Origin: Escherichia phage Sa157lw
DNA: 64,000 nucleotides
Strand: one strand, 5' to 3'
Sequence record: OK322699.1
Position 1 is the stretch's first letter, and each line of letters opens with the position of its first letter. The translations under genes and the position numbers were made by a program. This document shows, one piece after another, positions 33,817 through 58,120 of this stretch. The notes under the pieces were generated by a model that saw only the letters and a list, made by a program, of their open reading frames with translations, did no database searches and was not told where the DNA came from.

Positions 33817-34239
33817 ATGAAGAAGTATATCGTTCTTATAACGGGTTCCCGTTCTATAACTGAGCGGGACAAAATATTTGCCAAATTAGATGAACTCTTA
33901 ATCCCTCACGAGATAGAGACGTTTATTGAAGGTGAAGCAGTGGGTGTGGATCTGATATCCCGTGATTGGTGTGAAATCAATTATGTGCATATCACACCAA
34001 TGCCGATTCCTCAAAATTACCATACGTTATATGGGAAAGGTGCGGGCAATCAACGTAACAAAGATATGCTGGACAAGGCTCTAACATTGGCGAAGCAAAA
34101 AGATCTTGAGGTCTTTGGAATTGCATTATGGGATGGTTCGTCTACTGGGACGCAAGACATGATCAAGCGCATGAAGAAAGCGGGAATAAATGTCAATATC
34201 ACTCTCATGGGCAAACCCAAAACCAAACGATTGTTATAA
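33817..34239 (+). CDS. SLOG/DUF2493-like Rossmann-fold protein
   Basis: VLITGSRS ... EGEAVGVD ... QRNKDML ... WDGSSTGTQDMI pattern resembles the DprA/LOG-like DUF2493 family (from memory). Confidence 0.45.
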   Translation: MKKYIVLITGSRSITERDKIFAKLDELLIPHEIETFIEGEAVGVDLISRDWCEINYVHITPMPIPQNYHTLYGKGAGNQRNKDMLDKALTLAKQKDLEVFGIALWDGSSTGTQDMIKRMKKAGINVNITLMGKPKTKRLL

Positions 34240-53190: not shown

Positions 53191-53880
53191 ATGAAACGTT
53201 TAATCCTCGGGGTTGTGCTGGCAGGTCTGGCATTACCCGCCGCCGCCAAGCTGAACTCCACAGGTGACAAACTGTGGTCTGATCTTTCCTACTGTGCTGG
53301 GTTCTCCCAGGCCGTGGCTATAGACAAGTCCGGTTCCATAGAGAATTTCGCTGAACTTTGGAACACGGGTAACGTCTCCACTGCTGTTGTTAATGCTGGG
53401 ATTGAGTTCAACCGTTACAAACAGGGAGCCTACAACTTGAAAGGCTACCTGAATGACGATGAATTTAACCGAGGAGGCATGGAGGCTGGCGATCTCATCA
53501 TGACTGGCCGTATGGGCACACAAGGCCGTATGACTGTAAGGCAATGCCGTTCTCTCCCCTCTCCGGCATTACAGAAGGGTGTGCAAATCGGGCGTCGACA
53601 TTTGGATCTGATCAATGATGGCAACCAATGCATCAAGGTGTTTGAATATAGTGCCGACCAAGAATCAGATCGACGTTTGAAAAAGGAATGGCGGACACGT
53701 GCCCTTGGATTGAGAGCATGGCTCGTAGAAAACGATTATTACTACGAGGATCGTGTTCAGAACGGATTGAAAGATCTTTCCACTAATTTGTCTGTCAATC
53801 TAGACGACCCAAGGCTTTCGCGTGAACTCAAGCAAACACGGATTGACTGCGACAATATGATGAAGGAGAACGAAAGATGA
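53191..53880 (+). CDS. secreted/periplasmic protein (signal peptide)
   Basis: ATG 53191; N-terminus MKRLILGVVLAGLALPAAAK is a typical Sec signal peptide. Confidence 0.5.
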   Translation: MKRLILGVVLAGLALPAAAKLNSTGDKLWSDLSYCAGFSQAVAIDKSGSIENFAELWNTGNVSTAVVNAGIEFNRYKQGAYNLKGYLNDDEFNRGGMEAGDLIMTGRMGTQGRMTVRQCRSLPSPALQKGVQIGRRHLDLINDGNQCIKVFEYSADQESDRRLKKEWRTRALGLRAWLVENDYYYEDRVQNGLKDLSTNLSVNLDDPRLSRELKQTRIDCDNMMKENER

Positions 53881-54197
53881 GAAACATAATATTCTTGTTA
53901 TTCTTTTCTATGTTGGCATCATTCCAAGTTATGGCGACTCCGGCCAGCAAATTGAATATTTGCGCGGCCTGGTTGTCTACTTATCAACAATTTCACCCTG
54001 ATGATAAAGATACATCTATCCTTTTATCGGATTATGAAGGTGAGTTGAAACGCCTTGATCTCTACAGCGTGGATCAAATAGAGAATGCTTTAGATTTGCC
54101 AATGATGGAGTCCGCTGCCGACAATAGCAAACAGACGATCAAAGATCTGACTATGTGTCGGGAAATAGCCACTAATTTCGTTGGAAATCAAAGATAA
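53877..54197 (+). CDS. small secreted protein (signal peptide)
   Basis: AAGGAG SD; N-terminus MRNIIFLLFFSMLASFQVMA. Confidence 0.5.
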   Translation: MRNIIFLLFFSMLASFQVMATPASKLNICAAWLSTYQQFHPDDKDTSILLSDYEGELKRLDLYSVDQIENALDLPMMESAADNSKQTIKDLTMCREIATNFVGNQR

Positions 54198-55054: not shown

Positions 55055-55111
55055 TTCAATAACATTAGGGCGGTTATTATTAAACCGCCTTTTATTTGAG
55101 AGATCTATATT

Positions 55112-55781: not shown

Positions 55782-56069
55782 ATGTCCGGCGTATGGTGTG
55801 ATGTATTATTAGTGAGATTTTCAAACGGGATGGATAACCAGATTATTTCATTCTTTTATCCTGTTCCCTTTTCTTCTATGGGTCTGACTGTCAAGCGCGT
55901 TCTTGACATAGAAGAAAAACTCAACGCTATGCCGTATATGGCGCGACCACACGTGCTGGGTTGTGAACTGTTAAACGAAATGATGATCGATGAGAATCTT
56001 GTTGAAACAATTATCACGCGTGAACAGATGAAAACTATACTGGCTCAGGGAGAACCCCATGTCGAATAA
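55782..56069 (+). CDS. hypothetical protein
   Basis: ATG 55782 with GGAGG SD overlapping previous stop. Confidence 0.4.
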   Translation: MSGVWCDVLLVRFSNGMDNQIISFFYPVPFSSMGLTVKRVLDIEEKLNAMPYMARPHVLGCELLNEMMIDENLVETIITREQMKTILAQGEPHVE

Positions 56070-56379
56070 ACCGTTTGAACTTAAATTTCGCGTTTGGCAT
56101 ATTCCCCAGGTTCCTGGGATCGCTTTTCATGTTGAGGTTCCAACATTTGAAGAAGCGCAGCGCCTGAAGAATGCTCTGGGTGATTATGATTTGTTCCAGT
56201 TCAACAACAATATCAAGCCGGATTATTGCAATGCTTCGGGCATTCAGATTTATCAACATGATCTGACCGATGATGATCTTAATGATATGGGTCTGGATGA
56301 TCGTTGGGTTGATATGGAAGATGTTGACGAACTCAACGATTATTTCGAGCATCTGCGCAGTACAGGGTGGGAAATATGA
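56059..56379 (+). CDS. hypothetical acidic protein
   Basis: ORF with GGGAGAA SD. Confidence 0.45.
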   Translation: MSNKPFELKFRVWHIPQVPGIAFHVEVPTFEEAQRLKNALGDYDLFQFNNNIKPDYCNASGIQIYQHDLTDDDLNDMGLDDRWVDMEDVDELNDYFEHLRSTGWEI

Positions 56380-56684
56380 TTTCAAAATATATTGTAAAGC
56401 CTGGGGATACTCTGTCCAGCATCGCTCTAAAATTATATGGTGATGCCCAACAGTATATCAAATTAGCCAGATTCAACAATATCCAAAACCCAGGCCATAT
56501 CACGGTTGGTCAGGTTATTTGTTTACCCACACCTGTCGAAGACAAAGAACACATTATGATTCCGGTTCAACCGACTCAGAAGTGTTTGGATGCGATAGCT
56601 GGTTTATTTCGGCCAGGTTTTTGTGATGGAACTATTGAACGTCACATTTATCAAGCGATTGTGGAAAACGCAGGTGTAAAATGA
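56376..56684 (+). CDS. LysM domain protein
   Basis: YIVKPGDTLSSIALKLYGD...YIKLARFNNIQNPGHITVGQVICLP fits the LysM motif. Confidence 0.6.
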   Translation: MISKYIVKPGDTLSSIALKLYGDAQQYIKLARFNNIQNPGHITVGQVICLPTPVEDKEHIMIPVQPTQKCLDAIAGLFRPGFCDGTIERHIYQAIVENAGVK

Positions 56685-56890
56685 TCGGATTAATTCGTTA
56701 CCTGTTCATATTCGTAATTTCAACATTCATTTTATTTTTCTTTTTCAAATACTTGAAAGAGACTAAAATCTACCGAAGTAAACGTTGGCGCAAACGGGTG
56801 AGGGTAACTTTCCTGCTGCTGATTTCTTCGGTTACAATAACCGCACTCACATTGGGTGCATATATCTACATTTTTGAAGGGGTACATTGA
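56681..56890 (+). CDS. small membrane protein
   Basis: Two hydrophobic helices (FIFVISTFILFFFF; VTFLLLISSVTITALTLGAYIYIF); start overlaps LysM stop. Confidence 0.45.
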   Translation: MIGLIRYLFIFVISTFILFFFFKYLKETKIYRSKRWRKRVRVTFLLLISSVTITALTLGAYIYIFEGVH

Positions 56891-57681
56891 TGTTCAAGAA
56901 ATTGGTGTTCGGTGCAATTATGGTTCTGGCTGCAAGTCTACTTTCTGGTTGTGGTGGCGTTATCGATGAAGGTAATGTCGGCGTTCGCACCCAATGGGGT
57001 GAAGTAGACATGAACCCTGTAACAGCGGGGATCTACACCAGCTTTGTTTCAAGCGTGGATGTTTACACGACCAAAGAAGCCGTTGTGAGTCTGACTAAAA
57101 TGACGCCAAAGGCCAAAGACAACCTGACTCTGGAAGACTTGGATGTGGATGTTTATTACACACCCAATGTCGCAAAGGTTCCGTGGTTCCATACCAAATT
57201 TGCTGGCCAGAGCGCTGAACTCGATGATGGCACGATAGCGGTGGGTTTCAATCTAGTTAAAACTGCTGCAGCATCTTCTTCGATGGACGCCGTTTCTTCT
57301 CTTGATTCTATGACAATTCACACCCAACGTGCTGAATTAGAGAAGATGATTAAAGACCGCACTCAGCAACAATTAGAGACTGCTGCGCCTGGCATGTTCA
57401 CAATCACACGCGTGTTGGTCAAAAAGGCGCTGACGGATCCTTCTATTGAGCAGTCTATCCGTGATAATGTTATGGCGGACAAACGATTGGATACGGCAAG
57501 AAAGAACGTTGAAATTCGCGAGCAAGAAGCCCAAGCGAACCAGAAACTGACCACTTCGCTGACGCCTGAATATCTTCAACATGAATATAACATGGTATTA
57601 CAATCATGTGCCAATAGTGGAAAATGTACTCTGATCGTTGACGGATCCGGCTCAGGTAAAATGCTGAACGTCGGCAAATAA
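56890..57681 (+). CDS. lipoprotein with SPFH (band-7/prohibitin-like) domain
   Basis: Signal peptide with lipobox LLSGC; SPFH-like N-terminal segment (GNVGVRTQWGEV...TKEAVV...DVDVYY) and coiled-coil C-terminus. Confidence 0.5.
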   Translation: MFKKLVFGAIMVLAASLLSGCGGVIDEGNVGVRTQWGEVDMNPVTAGIYTSFVSSVDVYTTKEAVVSLTKMTPKAKDNLTLEDLDVDVYYTPNVAKVPWFHTKFAGQSAELDDGTIAVGFNLVKTAAASSSMDAVSSLDSMTIHTQRAELEKMIKDRTQQQLETAAPGMFTITRVLVKKALTDPSIEQSIRDNVMADKRLDTARKNVEIREQEAQANQKLTTSLTPEYLQHEYNMVLQSCANSGKCTLIVDGSGSGKMLNVGK

Positions 57682-57764
57682 ACGCTTTATTCAATAATAT
57701 TTGTTAGGTAAGCTGTAGTCCTCTTGTAGTGAAACATTGTAAACAACTAACTGGAGTAATCCGA

Positions 57765-58043
57765 ATGAACCGTACTGATTTTATCGCTCACATCGCCCAG
57801 ACTCAGGGTATGACCAAAGGCGAAGCAGAGAAGATCGTGGCATCCTTTATCAATGGCGTAAAAACTGCAGTCGCAGCTGGCCAATCTGTCCAATTCGTCG
57901 GCTTCGGCGCGTTTGAAGTTAAACATCAGGAAGCGCGCACTGGTCGCAACCCGCTGAACGGGCAAGCGATTCAGATCGAAGCGAAAAATGTTGTTAAATT
58001 CAAAGTCGGCGAAGGTCTGAAAGCTGCTGCCAACGGCCAGTAA
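57765..58043 (+). CDS. HU/IHF-family DNA-binding protein
   Basis: MNRTDFIAHIAQ...GFGAFEVKHQEARTGRNPLNGQAIQIEAKNVVKFKVG matches the bacterial HU consensus. Confidence 0.8.
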   Translation: MNRTDFIAHIAQTQGMTKGEAEKIVASFINGVKTAVAAGQSVQFVGFGAFEVKHQEARTGRNPLNGQAIQIEAKNVVKFKVGEGLKAAANGQ

Positions 58044-58091
58044 TCACATCCAGAGCGGTCGTGCCTAGCACAGCGTGTTAGGCTAAAAGAG

Positions 58092-58120
58092 AAAGCCGAG
58101 GTTAATGCCTCGGCTTTTTC
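58092..58120 (+). terminator. rho-independent terminator (AAAGCCGAGG-loop-CCTCGGCTTT plus T-run)
   Basis: Perfect 10-bp stem after HU gene stop. Confidence 0.65.

What the first reader, a model, noticed from the sequence alone, without database searches (positions are those of the whole stretch)
56376..57681. LysM protein, small membrane protein and SPFH lipoprotein as a compact envelope-targeted module
Three overlapping or abutting genes encode a LysM peptidoglycan-binding protein, a two-helix membrane protein and a lipoprotein with an SPFH (band-7) domain. SPFH proteins organise membrane microdomains. A phage-encoded set aimed at the envelope could act in superinfection exclusion, lysis timing or protection from envelope-acting defences. 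It is not part of the T4 core.
Basis: inference. Interest (0 to 1): 0.55.

Follow-up and report, generated by a model that had tools for sequence, protein, structure and literature searches.

The report
Phage SPFH lipoprotein with hairpin partner
A Vi01-like Salmonella phage carries a conserved but dispensable gene pair, a tiny two-helix membrane protein and a lipid-anchored periplasmic SPFH scaffold protein, beside an unrelated LysM gene. All three genes were already annotated, and their function is still unknown.

Summary
They encode a LysM protein (56376-56684), a 69-aa two-helix membrane hairpin (56681-56890) and a 263-aa SPFH/Band-7 lipoprotein (56890-57681). The window is a Kuttervirus (Vi01-like, Ackermannviridae), so these genes are already annotated in more than 150 public genomes.

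They are not one three-gene module. The conserved unit is the hairpin plus the SPFH lipoprotein. A two-helix hairpin ORF of 55-66 aa precedes the lipobox-bearing SPFH gene in all 18 distinct non-Kuttervirus phage loci examined. None of 6 relatives anchored by a transmembrane helix has one.

The LysM gene assorts independently. CBA120 has the pair only, Klebsiella phage May has LysM only, and GG32-type phages have LysM plus a deleted pair. The LysM protein also has no export signal.

The SPFH model (pLDDT 85.6) matches the cage-forming prohibitin, erlin, HflK/C and QmcA structures over its full length. The pair is under strong purifying selection (dN/dS about 0.02) yet has been lost naturally in some phages.

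Best reading: an accessory "split" SPFH scaffold on the periplasmic face of a membrane that remodels the envelope of the infected cell, perhaps for exclusion of other phages. The biological role is inferred, not shown.

The parts
56681..56890 (+). 69-aa two-helix membrane hairpin, partner of the SPFH lipoprotein. TM1 is at about aa 2-22, the basic loop at aa 23-41 (10 K/R) and TM2 at about aa 42-64, followed by a short acidic C-terminal tail (FEGVH).
   Evidence: ORF and sequence; hydropathy and charge; phrog_11680, unknown function. An ORF of the same architecture lies upstream of the SPFH gene in 18/18 distinct lipobox-type loci. dN/dS is 0.026 against CBA120.
56890..57681 (+). 263-aa SPFH/Band-7 lipoprotein.
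   Evidence: Pfam Band_7 3e-13; PHROG 200; AF2 model pLDDT 85.6; full-length Foldseek matches to prohibitin, erlin, HflK/C, stomatin and QmcA; dN/dS 0.017.
56890..56952 (+). Lipoprotein signal peptide with lipobox LSG|C. The lipidated Cys21 is at 56950-56952, and residues +2 and +3 are Gly-Gly.
   Evidence: Sequence read directly. A lipobox is present in 127 of 162 full-length family members.
56953..57435 (+). SPFH alpha/beta domain (aa 22-182). It starts 1-3 residues after the lipidated Cys.
   Evidence: AF2 secondary structure; Pfam envelope aa 24-216.
57439..57615 (+). Two long helices (aa 184-223 and 226-242) corresponding to the CC1 and CC2 wall helices of SPFH cages.
   Evidence: AF2 model; alignments of 230-290 columns to cage-forming SPFH structures.
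57607..57627 (+). C-terminal Cys240-x5-Cys246 pair (CANSGKC), a likely periplasmic disulphide.
   Evidence: A C-terminal Cys pair occurs in 56/127 lipobox members and in 4/35 members without a lipobox.
56376..56684 (+). 102-aa LysM protein. This is a neighbouring, independently assorting gene and not part of the conserved pair. The LysM domain is aa 5-51, and a conserved tail spans about aa 58-94.
   Evidence: Pfam LysM 1e-11; no hydrophobic segment; independent distribution; the family has only 3 clusters in the 5.8-billion-protein database; the tail is shared with the AV101 DUF7425 protein.
56059..56379 (+). Context: P22 gp17-like gene ('superinfection exclusion gene product 17'), overlapping the LysM start.
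   Evidence: Pfam PF17420 E 6e-52; phrog_1510.
55067..55091 (+). Context: terminator-like hairpin marking the upstream edge of the transcription unit that holds the pair.
   Evidence: a terminator is annotated at the equivalent place in Mooltan.
58092..58117 (.). Context: terminator-like hairpin after the HU gene, marking the downstream edge of the unit.
   Evidence: a terminator is annotated at the equivalent place in Mooltan.

Best explanation
The functional unit is a two-gene accessory cassette, not three genes. It consists of a small inner-membrane hairpin and a lipid-anchored SPFH protein that is exported to the periplasm.

Inferred mechanism, by analogy with solved SPFH assemblies:
- The SPFH protein oligomerises through its two long helices and C-terminal strands into a ring or dome that sits directly on a membrane surface. 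Its SPFH domain starts 1-3 residues after the lipidated cysteine.
- The hairpin, made in step with it from the overlapping upstream gene, supplies the membrane-spanning part that relatives with an N-terminal transmembrane helix carry in the same chain. This would make it a 'split' SPFH scaffold.
- The assembly would fence off a patch of the envelope of the infected cell.
- The most likely biological role is an accessory one in conflict with other phages or with the host envelope, such as exclusion of superinfecting phage or stabilisation of the envelope. It is not a core step of replication or lysis.

The LysM gene next to the pair is a separate cassette. It has no export signal and entered or left this slot together with the gp17-like gene.

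Shown here: the gene models, the domains, the lipobox, the fold, the conserved pairing, the independence of LysM, purifying selection and natural loss. Inferred: oligomerisation, physical contact between the two proteins, which membrane is used, and the biological role.
For: Pairing
- All 18 distinct non-Kuttervirus phage loci whose SPFH gene has a lipobox carry a co-directional ORF of 55-66 aa upstream. Each encodes two hydrophobic helices, a basic loop and a short, usually acidic tail. 17 abut the SPFH start and one is separated by a single ORF.
- SPFH identity to the window is only 35-57% across these loci, and hairpin identity only 10-28%. The architecture is kept, not the sequence.
- None of 6 relatives anchored by a transmembrane helix has such an ORF (L035). 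By hand, counting Kuttervirus as a 19th lipobox lineage, 19/19 against 0/6 gives Fisher p of about 6e-6. The loci are not phylogenetically independent.
- Acinetobacter phages with 24% identical SPFH lipoproteins also have small two-helix ORFs next to the gene.

Periplasmic location
- The lipobox is present.
- The C-terminal Cys pair is enriched in lipobox members, 56/127 against 4/35.
- The transmembrane-anchored relatives have basic residues ahead of the N-terminal helix, which by inspection suggests a periplasm-facing SPFH domain.

Cage-type architecture
- The AF2 model has pLDDT 85.6.
- It aligns over 230-290 columns to prohibitin 8rrh, erlin 9vvj, HflK/C 9cz2/7vhq/7wi3, stomatin 9oh9 and QmcA-YbbJ 8z5g, with E 1e-12 to 1e-8.

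Accessory status
- A 749-bp deletion in STP07 fuses codon 17 of the hairpin gene to codon 198 of the SPFH gene in a viable phage.
- The family is rare: 126 clusters at E<=1e-30 among 1.84 billion representatives.
- It is scattered over unrelated phage groups.
- It is nevertheless under strong constraint where present.

Gene context
- The pair sits in a terminator-bounded unit with a gp17-like gene, HU and replication genes, not with lysis genes.
- Recurrent neighbours in other loci are RNase T-like and RNA ligase genes.
Against: - No data here show that the two proteins touch, that the SPFH protein oligomerises, or when the genes are expressed.
- The membrane is unresolved. The residue after the lipidated Cys is Gly, and across the family G 60, T 19, F 15, S 13 and D only 2. 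By the E. coli +2 rule (PMC4623201) this predicts transfer to the outer membrane, whereas an alpha-helical hairpin can only sit in the inner membrane. If the lipoprotein goes to the outer membrane, the 'split scaffold' idea fails.
- The exclusion or stabilisation role rests only on accessory distribution, on gene context and on the name of the neighbouring gp17-like gene.
- PADLOC and NCBIfam give no functional match.
- Published papers say the role of phage SPFH proteins is unknown.
Confidence: 0.45

Rival explanations
1. HflK/C mimic. The periplasmic SPFH protein, with the hairpin, inserts into or replaces the host HflK/C cage around the FtsH protease. This would change which membrane proteins FtsH degrades during infection, for example by protecting phage membrane proteins.
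For: HflK/C is the solved bacterial SPFH cage among the Foldseek matches known to face the periplasm, and it matches at E 6e-12 to 1e-8. Sources name homologues 'regulator of protease activity HflC'. Transmembrane-anchored bacterial relatives have an HflC-like topology. The strongly basic cytoplasmic loop of the hairpin would sit in the same compartment as the FtsH ATPase.
Against: There is only one SPFH gene, whereas HflK/C is a pair of paralogues. A family profile finds no PDB sequence at all at E<=0.01, HflK/C included. Prohibitin and erlin match as well as HflK/C does. An outer-membrane sorting signal would place the protein away from FtsH. Nothing here tests the FtsH link.
Confidence: 0.15
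2. Outer-membrane exclusion lipoprotein, with the hairpin acting separately. [quoted passage not shown] There it masks or immobilises a receptor or an outer-membrane channel, as T5 Llp does. The hairpin independently blocks DNA entry at the inner membrane, as T4 Imm does.
For: The +2 residues are mostly Gly, Ser, Thr or Phe and rarely Asp, which predicts outer-membrane sorting by the E. coli rule. SPFH proteins repeatedly turn up in mass spectrometry of phage preparations: Sajous1 gp200 and jumbo phages. A prophage HflK/C-like protein of Pasteurella is reported in outer-membrane vesicles. This is what an outer-membrane or vesicle protein would do. The neighbouring gene carries a superinfection-exclusion name.
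Against: This does not explain why the hairpin is tied so tightly to the lipobox forms and is absent from the transmembrane-anchored forms. There is no sequence similarity to Llp, Imm or Sp in Pfam or PHROG scans. Kutterviruses recognise surface polysaccharides by tailspikes (own knowledge), so a protein receptor to mask is not obvious.
Confidence: 0.2
3. Lysis-timing device. The hairpin is a holin or antiholin-like protein, and the SPFH cage holds it in check until the right moment.
For: The hairpin is small with two transmembrane helices, like class II holins. SPFH cages are known to sequester membrane proteins. PHROG-based pipelines label the LysM neighbour 'endolysin' and a gene about 2.7 kb upstream 'Rz-like spanin'.
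Against: The 'endolysin' label reflects only a LysM-bearing stretch of a 2564-column profile, and the protein has no catalytic domain. The 'spanin' candidate has no lipobox. The hairpin has a 5-residue C-terminal tail, not the charged cytoplasmic tail typical of holins. No endolysin or spanin gene recurs next to the pair in 19 other loci. The pair lies among replication-type genes. Phages with the pair deleted are viable.
Confidence: 0.08
4. LysM, hairpin and SPFH lipoprotein work together, for example with LysM tying the SPFH assembly to peptidoglycan.
For: The three genes overlap and are co-transcribed in Vi01-type phages.
Against: All four presence/absence combinations occur in the same slot. 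LysM at 95% identity or more is in 48 phage records, against about 168 for the SPFH gene. No LysM gene lies near the pair in 22 other loci. The LysM protein has no signal peptide. Its conserved tail belongs with the upstream DUF7425 gene instead.
Confidence: 0.05

Closest known systems
E. coli HflK/C cage around FtsH (PDB 7vhq, 7wi3, 9cz2)
   Same: The SPFH domain followed by two long helices and a C-terminal strand region faces the periplasm and sits on a membrane. Full-length structural match.
   Different: HflK/C is two paralogous chains, each with its own N-terminal transmembrane helix. Here there is one SPFH chain anchored by a lipobox, plus a separate two-helix hairpin. Sequence identity is about 15%, and a family profile does not reach any PDB sequence. 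The FtsH link is untested.
SPFH-NfeD operons, e.g. E. coli QmcA-YbbJ (PDB 8z5g)
   Same: An SPFH gene is coupled in an operon to a small membrane protein. Structural match of the SPFH chain at E 6e-9.
   Different: The hairpin has no NfeD (OB-fold) domain and no Pfam NfeD hit even at E<=1. QmcA faces the cytoplasm (own knowledge), whereas this protein is exported.
SPFH/Band-7 proteins of other viruses (jumbo Erwinia phages, RaK2-like phages, Vibrio, Rhizobium and Streptomyces phages, giant viruses)
   Same: Virus-encoded SPFH proteins are recurrent and share the fold. Their role is described as unknown.
   Different: Most of those named in BFVD align at 13-18% identity. Whether they are lipid-anchored or have a hairpin partner was not examined. 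The family defined here is small, at 126 clusters at E<=1e-30.
T4 Imm/Sp and T5 Llp superinfection-exclusion proteins
   Same: These are small envelope proteins made by a virulent phage, non-essential in the laboratory, either a membrane hairpin (Imm) or an outer-membrane lipoprotein (Llp). This comparison rests on my own knowledge of those systems.
   Different: There is no detectable sequence relationship. Llp is about 60 aa with no SPFH domain. No exclusion phenotype is known for this pair.
Pasteurella multocida prophage protein PM0222 (HflK/C-like)
   Same: A phage-borne SPFH-family protein in a Gram-negative envelope, reported in outer-membrane vesicles (PMC9872710).
   Different: Its sequence was not compared here. 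It was studied as a virulence factor acting on macrophages, not for a role in phage biology.

Membership tests
SPFH / Band 7 superfamily (Pfam PF01145) | Profile match above the curated cut-off | tested here: met
   50.6 bits against a cut-off of 23.6, E 3e-13, aa 24-216.
SPFH / Band 7 superfamily (Pfam PF01145) | SPFH alpha/beta domain followed by long wall helices and a C-terminal strand region | tested here: met
   AF2 model pLDDT 85.6. Alignments of 230-290 columns to prohibitin, erlin, HflK/C, stomatin and QmcA, E 1e-12 to 1e-8.
SPFH / Band 7 superfamily (Pfam PF01145) | N-terminal membrane anchor next to the SPFH domain | tested here: met
   Met in variant form, by a lipobox Cys21 instead of a transmembrane helix. 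The SPFH domain starts at residue 22-24.
SPFH / Band 7 superfamily (Pfam PF01145) | Assembly into a large ring or cage | not testable with these tools
   No multimer prediction or experiment was available.
HflK/C-FtsH system | Two paralogous SPFH chains encoded together | tested here: not met
   There is a single SPFH gene, and no second Band_7 ORF in the flanks.
HflK/C-FtsH system | Close sequence relationship to HflK or HflC | tested here: not met
   A family profile finds no PDB chain at E<=0.01. Structural alignments show about 15% identity, no better than to prohibitin or erlin.
HflK/C-FtsH system | Binding to FtsH | not testable with these tools
   Needs pull-down or structure.
SPFH-NfeD operon | Partner protein with an NfeD (OB-fold) domain | tested here: not met
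   The 69-aa hairpin has no room for such a domain and gives no NfeD hit at E<=1. The hairpins from other loci match no annotated PHROG.
Bacterial lipoprotein | Basic n-region, hydrophobic h-region and lipobox [LVI][ASTVI][GAS]C | tested here: met
   MFKK-LVFGAIMVLAASL-LSGC. 127 of 162 full-length relatives have a lipobox. Actual lipidation was not testable.
LysM peptidoglycan-binding proteins acting in the envelope | LysM domain above the Pfam cut-off | tested here: met
   45 bits against a cut-off of 20.9. The AF2 LysM part has pLDDT 81-87.
LysM peptidoglycan-binding proteins acting in the envelope | Export signal or membrane anchor that brings the domain to the cell wall | tested here: not met
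   There is no hydrophobic segment (maximum 19-residue hydropathy 0.92). The LysM domain begins at residue 5.
Endolysin (label given by some annotations) | A catalytic muralytic domain | tested here: not met
   Only a LysM domain and a 50-aa tail are present. The PHROG 'endolysin' hit covers profile columns 2104-2209 of 2564.
Two-component spanin | Inner-membrane subunit with a periplasmic coiled coil, plus a small outer-membrane lipoprotein | tested here: not met
   The hairpin has no periplasmic domain. The lipoprotein is a 243-aa globular SPFH protein.
Holin | Small membrane protein with a charged cytoplasmic C-terminal tail, encoded with lysis genes | tested here: not met
   The C-terminal tail is 5 residues and the charge sits in the loop. 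No lysis genes recur next to the pair.
T4 Imm / Sp, T5 Llp exclusion proteins | Sequence membership in those families | tested here: not met
   No Pfam or PHROG hit to them for the hairpin or the lipoprotein.

The most novel reading that the evidence does not exclude
The hairpin and the lipid-anchored SPFH protein form a phage-specific 'split' SPFH cage on the periplasmic face of the inner membrane. The cage captures a host envelope machine, such as a DNA-entry route, FtsH or a cell-wall or Tol-Pal component, to block rival phages or a host envelope defence. That would be the first assigned function for a virus-encoded SPFH protein and a new way for phages to partition the bacterial envelope.
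Probability: 0.2. Interest if true: 0.7.

Novelty: new variant of a known kind. Interest (0 to 1): 0.42.

Why it matters
SPFH proteins (prohibitin, stomatin, flotillin, HflK/C) build cages that fence off membrane patches. Many viruses encode them, but no role in any virus is given in the papers consulted. This locus offers a small and tractable case:

- a well-studied phage group (Vi01, CBA120) on model hosts;
- a two-gene unit;
- natural knock-outs (GG32-type phages);
- a clear structural hypothesis, namely a lipid-anchored periplasmic cage with a separately encoded membrane hairpin.

If the pair proves to exclude other phages or to protect the infected envelope, that would matter for the design of phage cocktails with Kutterviruses. 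It would also give a function to a widespread class of viral genes. As it stands, the finding is a correct annotation with a refined module boundary, not a discovery of function.

Tried and rejected
- Three-gene module: rejected from distribution and from the lack of an export signal on the LysM protein.
- Anti-phage defence homology: no PADLOC hit for any of the four genes.
- NCBIfam: nothing above cut-off.
- Sequence link to solved SPFH structures: a family profile found none at E<=0.01. Only fold comparison links them.
- NfeD-like partner: no Pfam hit.
- Annotated PHROG for the hairpins: none.
- Lysis-cassette idea: the neighbour clustering across 19 loci found only RNase T-like and RNA ligase genes recurring, plus antisense shadow ORFs of the SPFH gene itself. 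No endolysin, holin or spanin recurred.
- T4-type late promoter TATAAATA near the operon: one match in the whole window, far away at 34235, fewer than the chance expectation. Expression timing therefore could not be inferred.
- Sigma-70-like and terminator scan: only the two flanking terminators are informative.
- Literature on Kuttervirus transcriptomics: nothing usable.
- Literature on non-Asp inner-membrane retention signals: my recollection that Gly or aromatic residues at +2 can retain some lipoproteins (Seydel et al. 1999) could not be checked in the papers held, so it is not used as evidence.
- AF2 model of the LysM protein: the LysM part is confident, but the tail is poor (pLDDT 45-56, 4-sequence alignment). 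It gave no fold for the tail.
- Complex prediction of hairpin with SPFH: not possible with the tools.
Full report
**What is there**

The window is a Kuttervirus (Vi01-like, Ackermannviridae). The stretch 55900-58100 is 99.8% identical to Salmonella phages PS5 and Mooltan, and it matches 175 phage records. Three + strand ORFs lie at the coordinates given.

- **LysM protein**, 56376-56684, 102 aa. Pfam LysM E 1e-11, above the cut-off, aa 5-51.
- **Membrane hairpin**, 56681-56890, 69 aa. It has two hydrophobic helices and a loop with 10 Lys/Arg. It matches phrog_11680, function unknown.
- **SPFH lipoprotein**, 56890-57681, 263 aa. Pfam Band_7 E 3e-13, above the cut-off. PHROG 200 'lipoprotein', E 1e-58. 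The N-terminus MFKKLVFGAIMVLAASLLSG|C carries a canonical lipobox.

The genes overlap by ATGA or TGATG, and each start has a purine-rich ribosome-binding stretch. They lie in a unit bounded by terminator-like hairpins at 55067-55091 and 58092-58117 (Mooltan annotation). That unit also holds two genes of unknown function, a P22 gp17-like gene (PF17420, E 6e-52) and an HU gene. The genes are already annotated in public records as 'LysM domain protein', 'hypothetical protein' and 'SPFH domain band 7 family protein / lipoprotein'.

**The module is two genes, not three**

I collected relatives of the SPFH protein from the large protein database (60 proteins), from viral contigs (28 loci) and from GenBank phages.

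- In all 18 distinct non-Kuttervirus loci whose SPFH gene carries a lipobox, a co-directional ORF of 55-66 aa lies just upstream. Each has the same build: a short N-terminus with one basic residue, helix 1, a basic loop, helix 2, and a short and usually acidic tail. 17 abut the SPFH start and one is separated by a single ORF.
- The SPFH proteins in these loci are only 35-57% identical to the window's, and the hairpins only 10-28%. The architecture is conserved, not the sequence.
- None of six relatives that carry an N-terminal transmembrane helix instead of a lipobox has such an ORF. One is on a phage contig and five are in bacterial or other contexts.
- Counting Kuttervirus as a 19th lipobox lineage, 19/19 against 0/6 gives Fisher p of about 6e-6 by hand. 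The loci are not independent.
- Acinetobacter phages whose SPFH lipoprotein is only about 24% identical also have small two-helix ORFs beside the gene.

**LysM assorts independently**

The slot between the gp17-like gene and the HU gene shows every combination.

| Phage | LysM gene | Hairpin+SPFH pair |
|---|---|---|
| Vi01 and this window | present | present |
| CBA120, PhiSH19 | absent | present |
| Klebsiella phage May (Taipeivirus) | present | absent |
| STP07 (GG32 species) | present | deleted |

- In STP07 a 749-bp deletion fuses codon 17 of the hairpin gene to codon 198 of the SPFH gene.
- Erwinia phage phiEa2809 has the pair at 54% SPFH identity, but no LysM gene upstream of it.
- LysM at 95% identity or more occurs in 48 phage records, against about 168 for the SPFH gene.
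- No LysM homologue lies within 4 kb of the pair in 22 other loci.
- The LysM protein has no hydrophobic segment, so nothing sends it to the envelope.
- Its family is tiny, with 3 clusters in 5.8 billion proteins.

**What the SPFH protein looks like**

The AlphaFold model is confident (mean pLDDT 85.6). It shows a signal helix, an alpha/beta SPFH domain (aa 22-182), helices at aa 184-223 and 226-242, and short C-terminal strands. Foldseek aligns 230-290 columns of it to every solved cage-forming SPFH protein: prohibitin, erlin, HflK/C, stomatin, QmcA and flotillin, with E 1e-12 to 1e-7 at about 15% identity.

By sequence the family is isolated.

- A family profile finds no PDB chain at E<=0.01.
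- The same profile finds only 1801 of 1.84 billion cluster representatives at E<=0.001, and 126 at E<=1e-30.
- Of 162 full-length members, 127 have a lipobox.
- A C-terminal Cys-x(4-8)-Cys pair (here Cys240 and Cys246) is found in 56 of the 127 lipobox members, but in only 4 of the 35 without a lipobox. This fits an oxidising periplasmic location.

The SPFH domain begins one to three residues after the lipidated cysteine, so it must sit directly on the membrane that holds the lipid.

**Selection and dispensability**

Between the window and CBA120, the hairpin gene has 10 synonymous and 1 nonsynonymous change. The SPFH gene has 88 and 8. The dN/dS values are 0.026 and 0.017, similar to the HU gene at 0.036. 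The pair is therefore maintained by selection where present. It has nevertheless been lost in viable phages, and it is absent from the Taipeivirus (May) and Aglimvirinae (AV101) phages examined. That is the signature of an accessory gene set.

**How it most likely works**

Shown: the points above. The rest is inferred.

- By analogy with solved SPFH assemblies, the lipoprotein should oligomerise into a ring or dome over a membrane patch.
- The lipobox forms always have the hairpin and the transmembrane-anchored forms never do. The simplest reading is that the hairpin supplies the membrane-spanning element, making a 'split' SPFH scaffold. The overlapping genes are compatible with coupled translation.
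- That reading requires the lipoprotein to stay on the periplasmic face of the inner membrane.
- This is the weak point. The residue after the lipidated Cys is Gly, and the family overall has G 60, T 19, F 15, S 13 and D 2. By the E. coli +2 rule that predicts transfer to the outer membrane (PMC4623201).
- SPFH proteins are also detected repeatedly in mass spectrometry of phage preparations, and a prophage SPFH-like protein has been reported in outer-membrane vesicles. Both would fit an outer-membrane location.
- I therefore keep an outer-membrane, Llp-like exclusion model as the main rival.

As for biological role, several things favour a conflict-type or envelope-protection function over a core or lysis function: accessory distribution, placement among replication-type genes rather than lysis genes, and the neighbouring gp17-like gene. 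None of this is tested. Papers that mention phage SPFH genes state that their role is unknown.

**Comparison with known systems**

It works like an SPFH scaffold and passes the family tests for profile, fold and membrane anchor.

- It is not HflK/C: one chain rather than two, and no close sequence link.
- It is not an SPFH-NfeD pair: the partner has no NfeD domain.
- It is not a spanin, holin or endolysin.
- It shows no sequence link to T4 Imm/Sp or T5 Llp.
- Virus-encoded SPFH proteins are common, including in giant viruses.

The distinct features here are the lipid anchor, the Cys pair and the obligatory hairpin partner.

**Verdict**

The genes are known annotations in a well-sequenced phage genus. 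The refined picture, a conserved hairpin+SPFH lipoprotein pair independent of LysM, was not mentioned in the papers read here and gives a testable hypothesis. No function is established. Interest is moderate.

Noticed in passing
window 55782-56069 and 56376-56684; L041 2195-2635 (Escherichia phage AV101): The LysM ORF looks chimeric. Its tail (aa ~58-94, IPVQPTQKCLDAIAGLFRPGFCDG...) is 49% identical to the C-terminal end of a single 146-aa protein of the Aglimvirinae phage AV101. The first 88 aa of that AV101 protein are 59% identical to the window's DUF7425 gene (55782-56069). So the block 'gp17-like gene + LysM domain' lies inside what is one gene in AV101. Either an insertion split the gene or a deletion fused it. 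The tail is nearly invariant between the Kuttervirus and Taipeivirus LysM proteins, more conserved than the LysM domain itself.
   Followed up: partly
window 56732-57480; L004 3950-4201 (Salmonella phage STP07): A natural 749-bp deletion in GG32-type Kutterviruses joins codon 17 of the hairpin gene in frame to codon 198 of the SPFH gene, leaving an 83-aa fusion ORF. At least three records (STP07, Liang dang 541, BRM 13314) match only SPFH residues 198-263. No obvious microhomology at the junction.
   Followed up: yes
window 56890-57681 against L037 2501-3292 (CBA120): Synonymous divergence of the SPFH gene between the window and CBA120 (dS 0.77, 88% nucleotide identity) is three to six times that of the flanking hairpin, gp17-like and HU genes (dS 0.12-0.26). 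This suggests allele exchange by recombination at this gene.
   Followed up: no
window 53191-53880 and 53877-54197: Two overlapping genes encode proteins with N-terminal signal-peptide-like sequences (229 and 106 aa). Some pipelines label them 'i-spanin' and 'Rz-like spanin' (phrog_3843). The 106-aa protein has no lipobox, and the 229-aa protein appears to have a cleavable signal rather than a membrane anchor, so the spanin labels look doubtful. Homologues lie upstream of the hairpin+SPFH pair in Erwinia phage phiEa2809, separated from it only by about 460 bp holding two small unannotated ORFs.
   Followed up: partly
window 56461-56432 and 56418-56391, minus strand: Two strong sigma-70-like promoter matches (11/12 and 10/12 positions) lie antisense inside the LysM gene, pointing towards the gp17-like gene. 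The total number of promoter-like hits in the region is close to the chance expectation (15 against 11.9), so this may mean nothing.
   Followed up: no
L005 3001-4524 (Acinetobacter phage Ab15); L043 1553-2804 (Acinetobacter phage AbTZA1): Distant SPFH lipoproteins (about 24% identity) occur in Acinetobacter phages of at least two groups, including T4-like Straboviridae. They also have small two-helix ORFs next to them. In Ab15, a repeat protein that by eye resembles bactofilins (not tested) lies between the SPFH gene and the hairpin ORF.
   Followed up: partly
L046 1257-2402: A transmembrane-anchored relative of the SPFH protein (P0059) sits next to a divergently oriented gene with a Pfam AcrVA2-like (anti-CRISPR-like) hit, which hints at a mobile-element context.
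   Followed up: no
window 56059-56379: The gp17-like gene (Pfam 'superinfection exclusion gene product 17') is present in Kuttervirus and Taipeivirus and, as a longer 157-aa form, in phiEa2809. It is absent from the equivalent slot of AV101. It travels with the LysM gene in Taipeivirus but is present without LysM in CBA120.
   Followed up: partly
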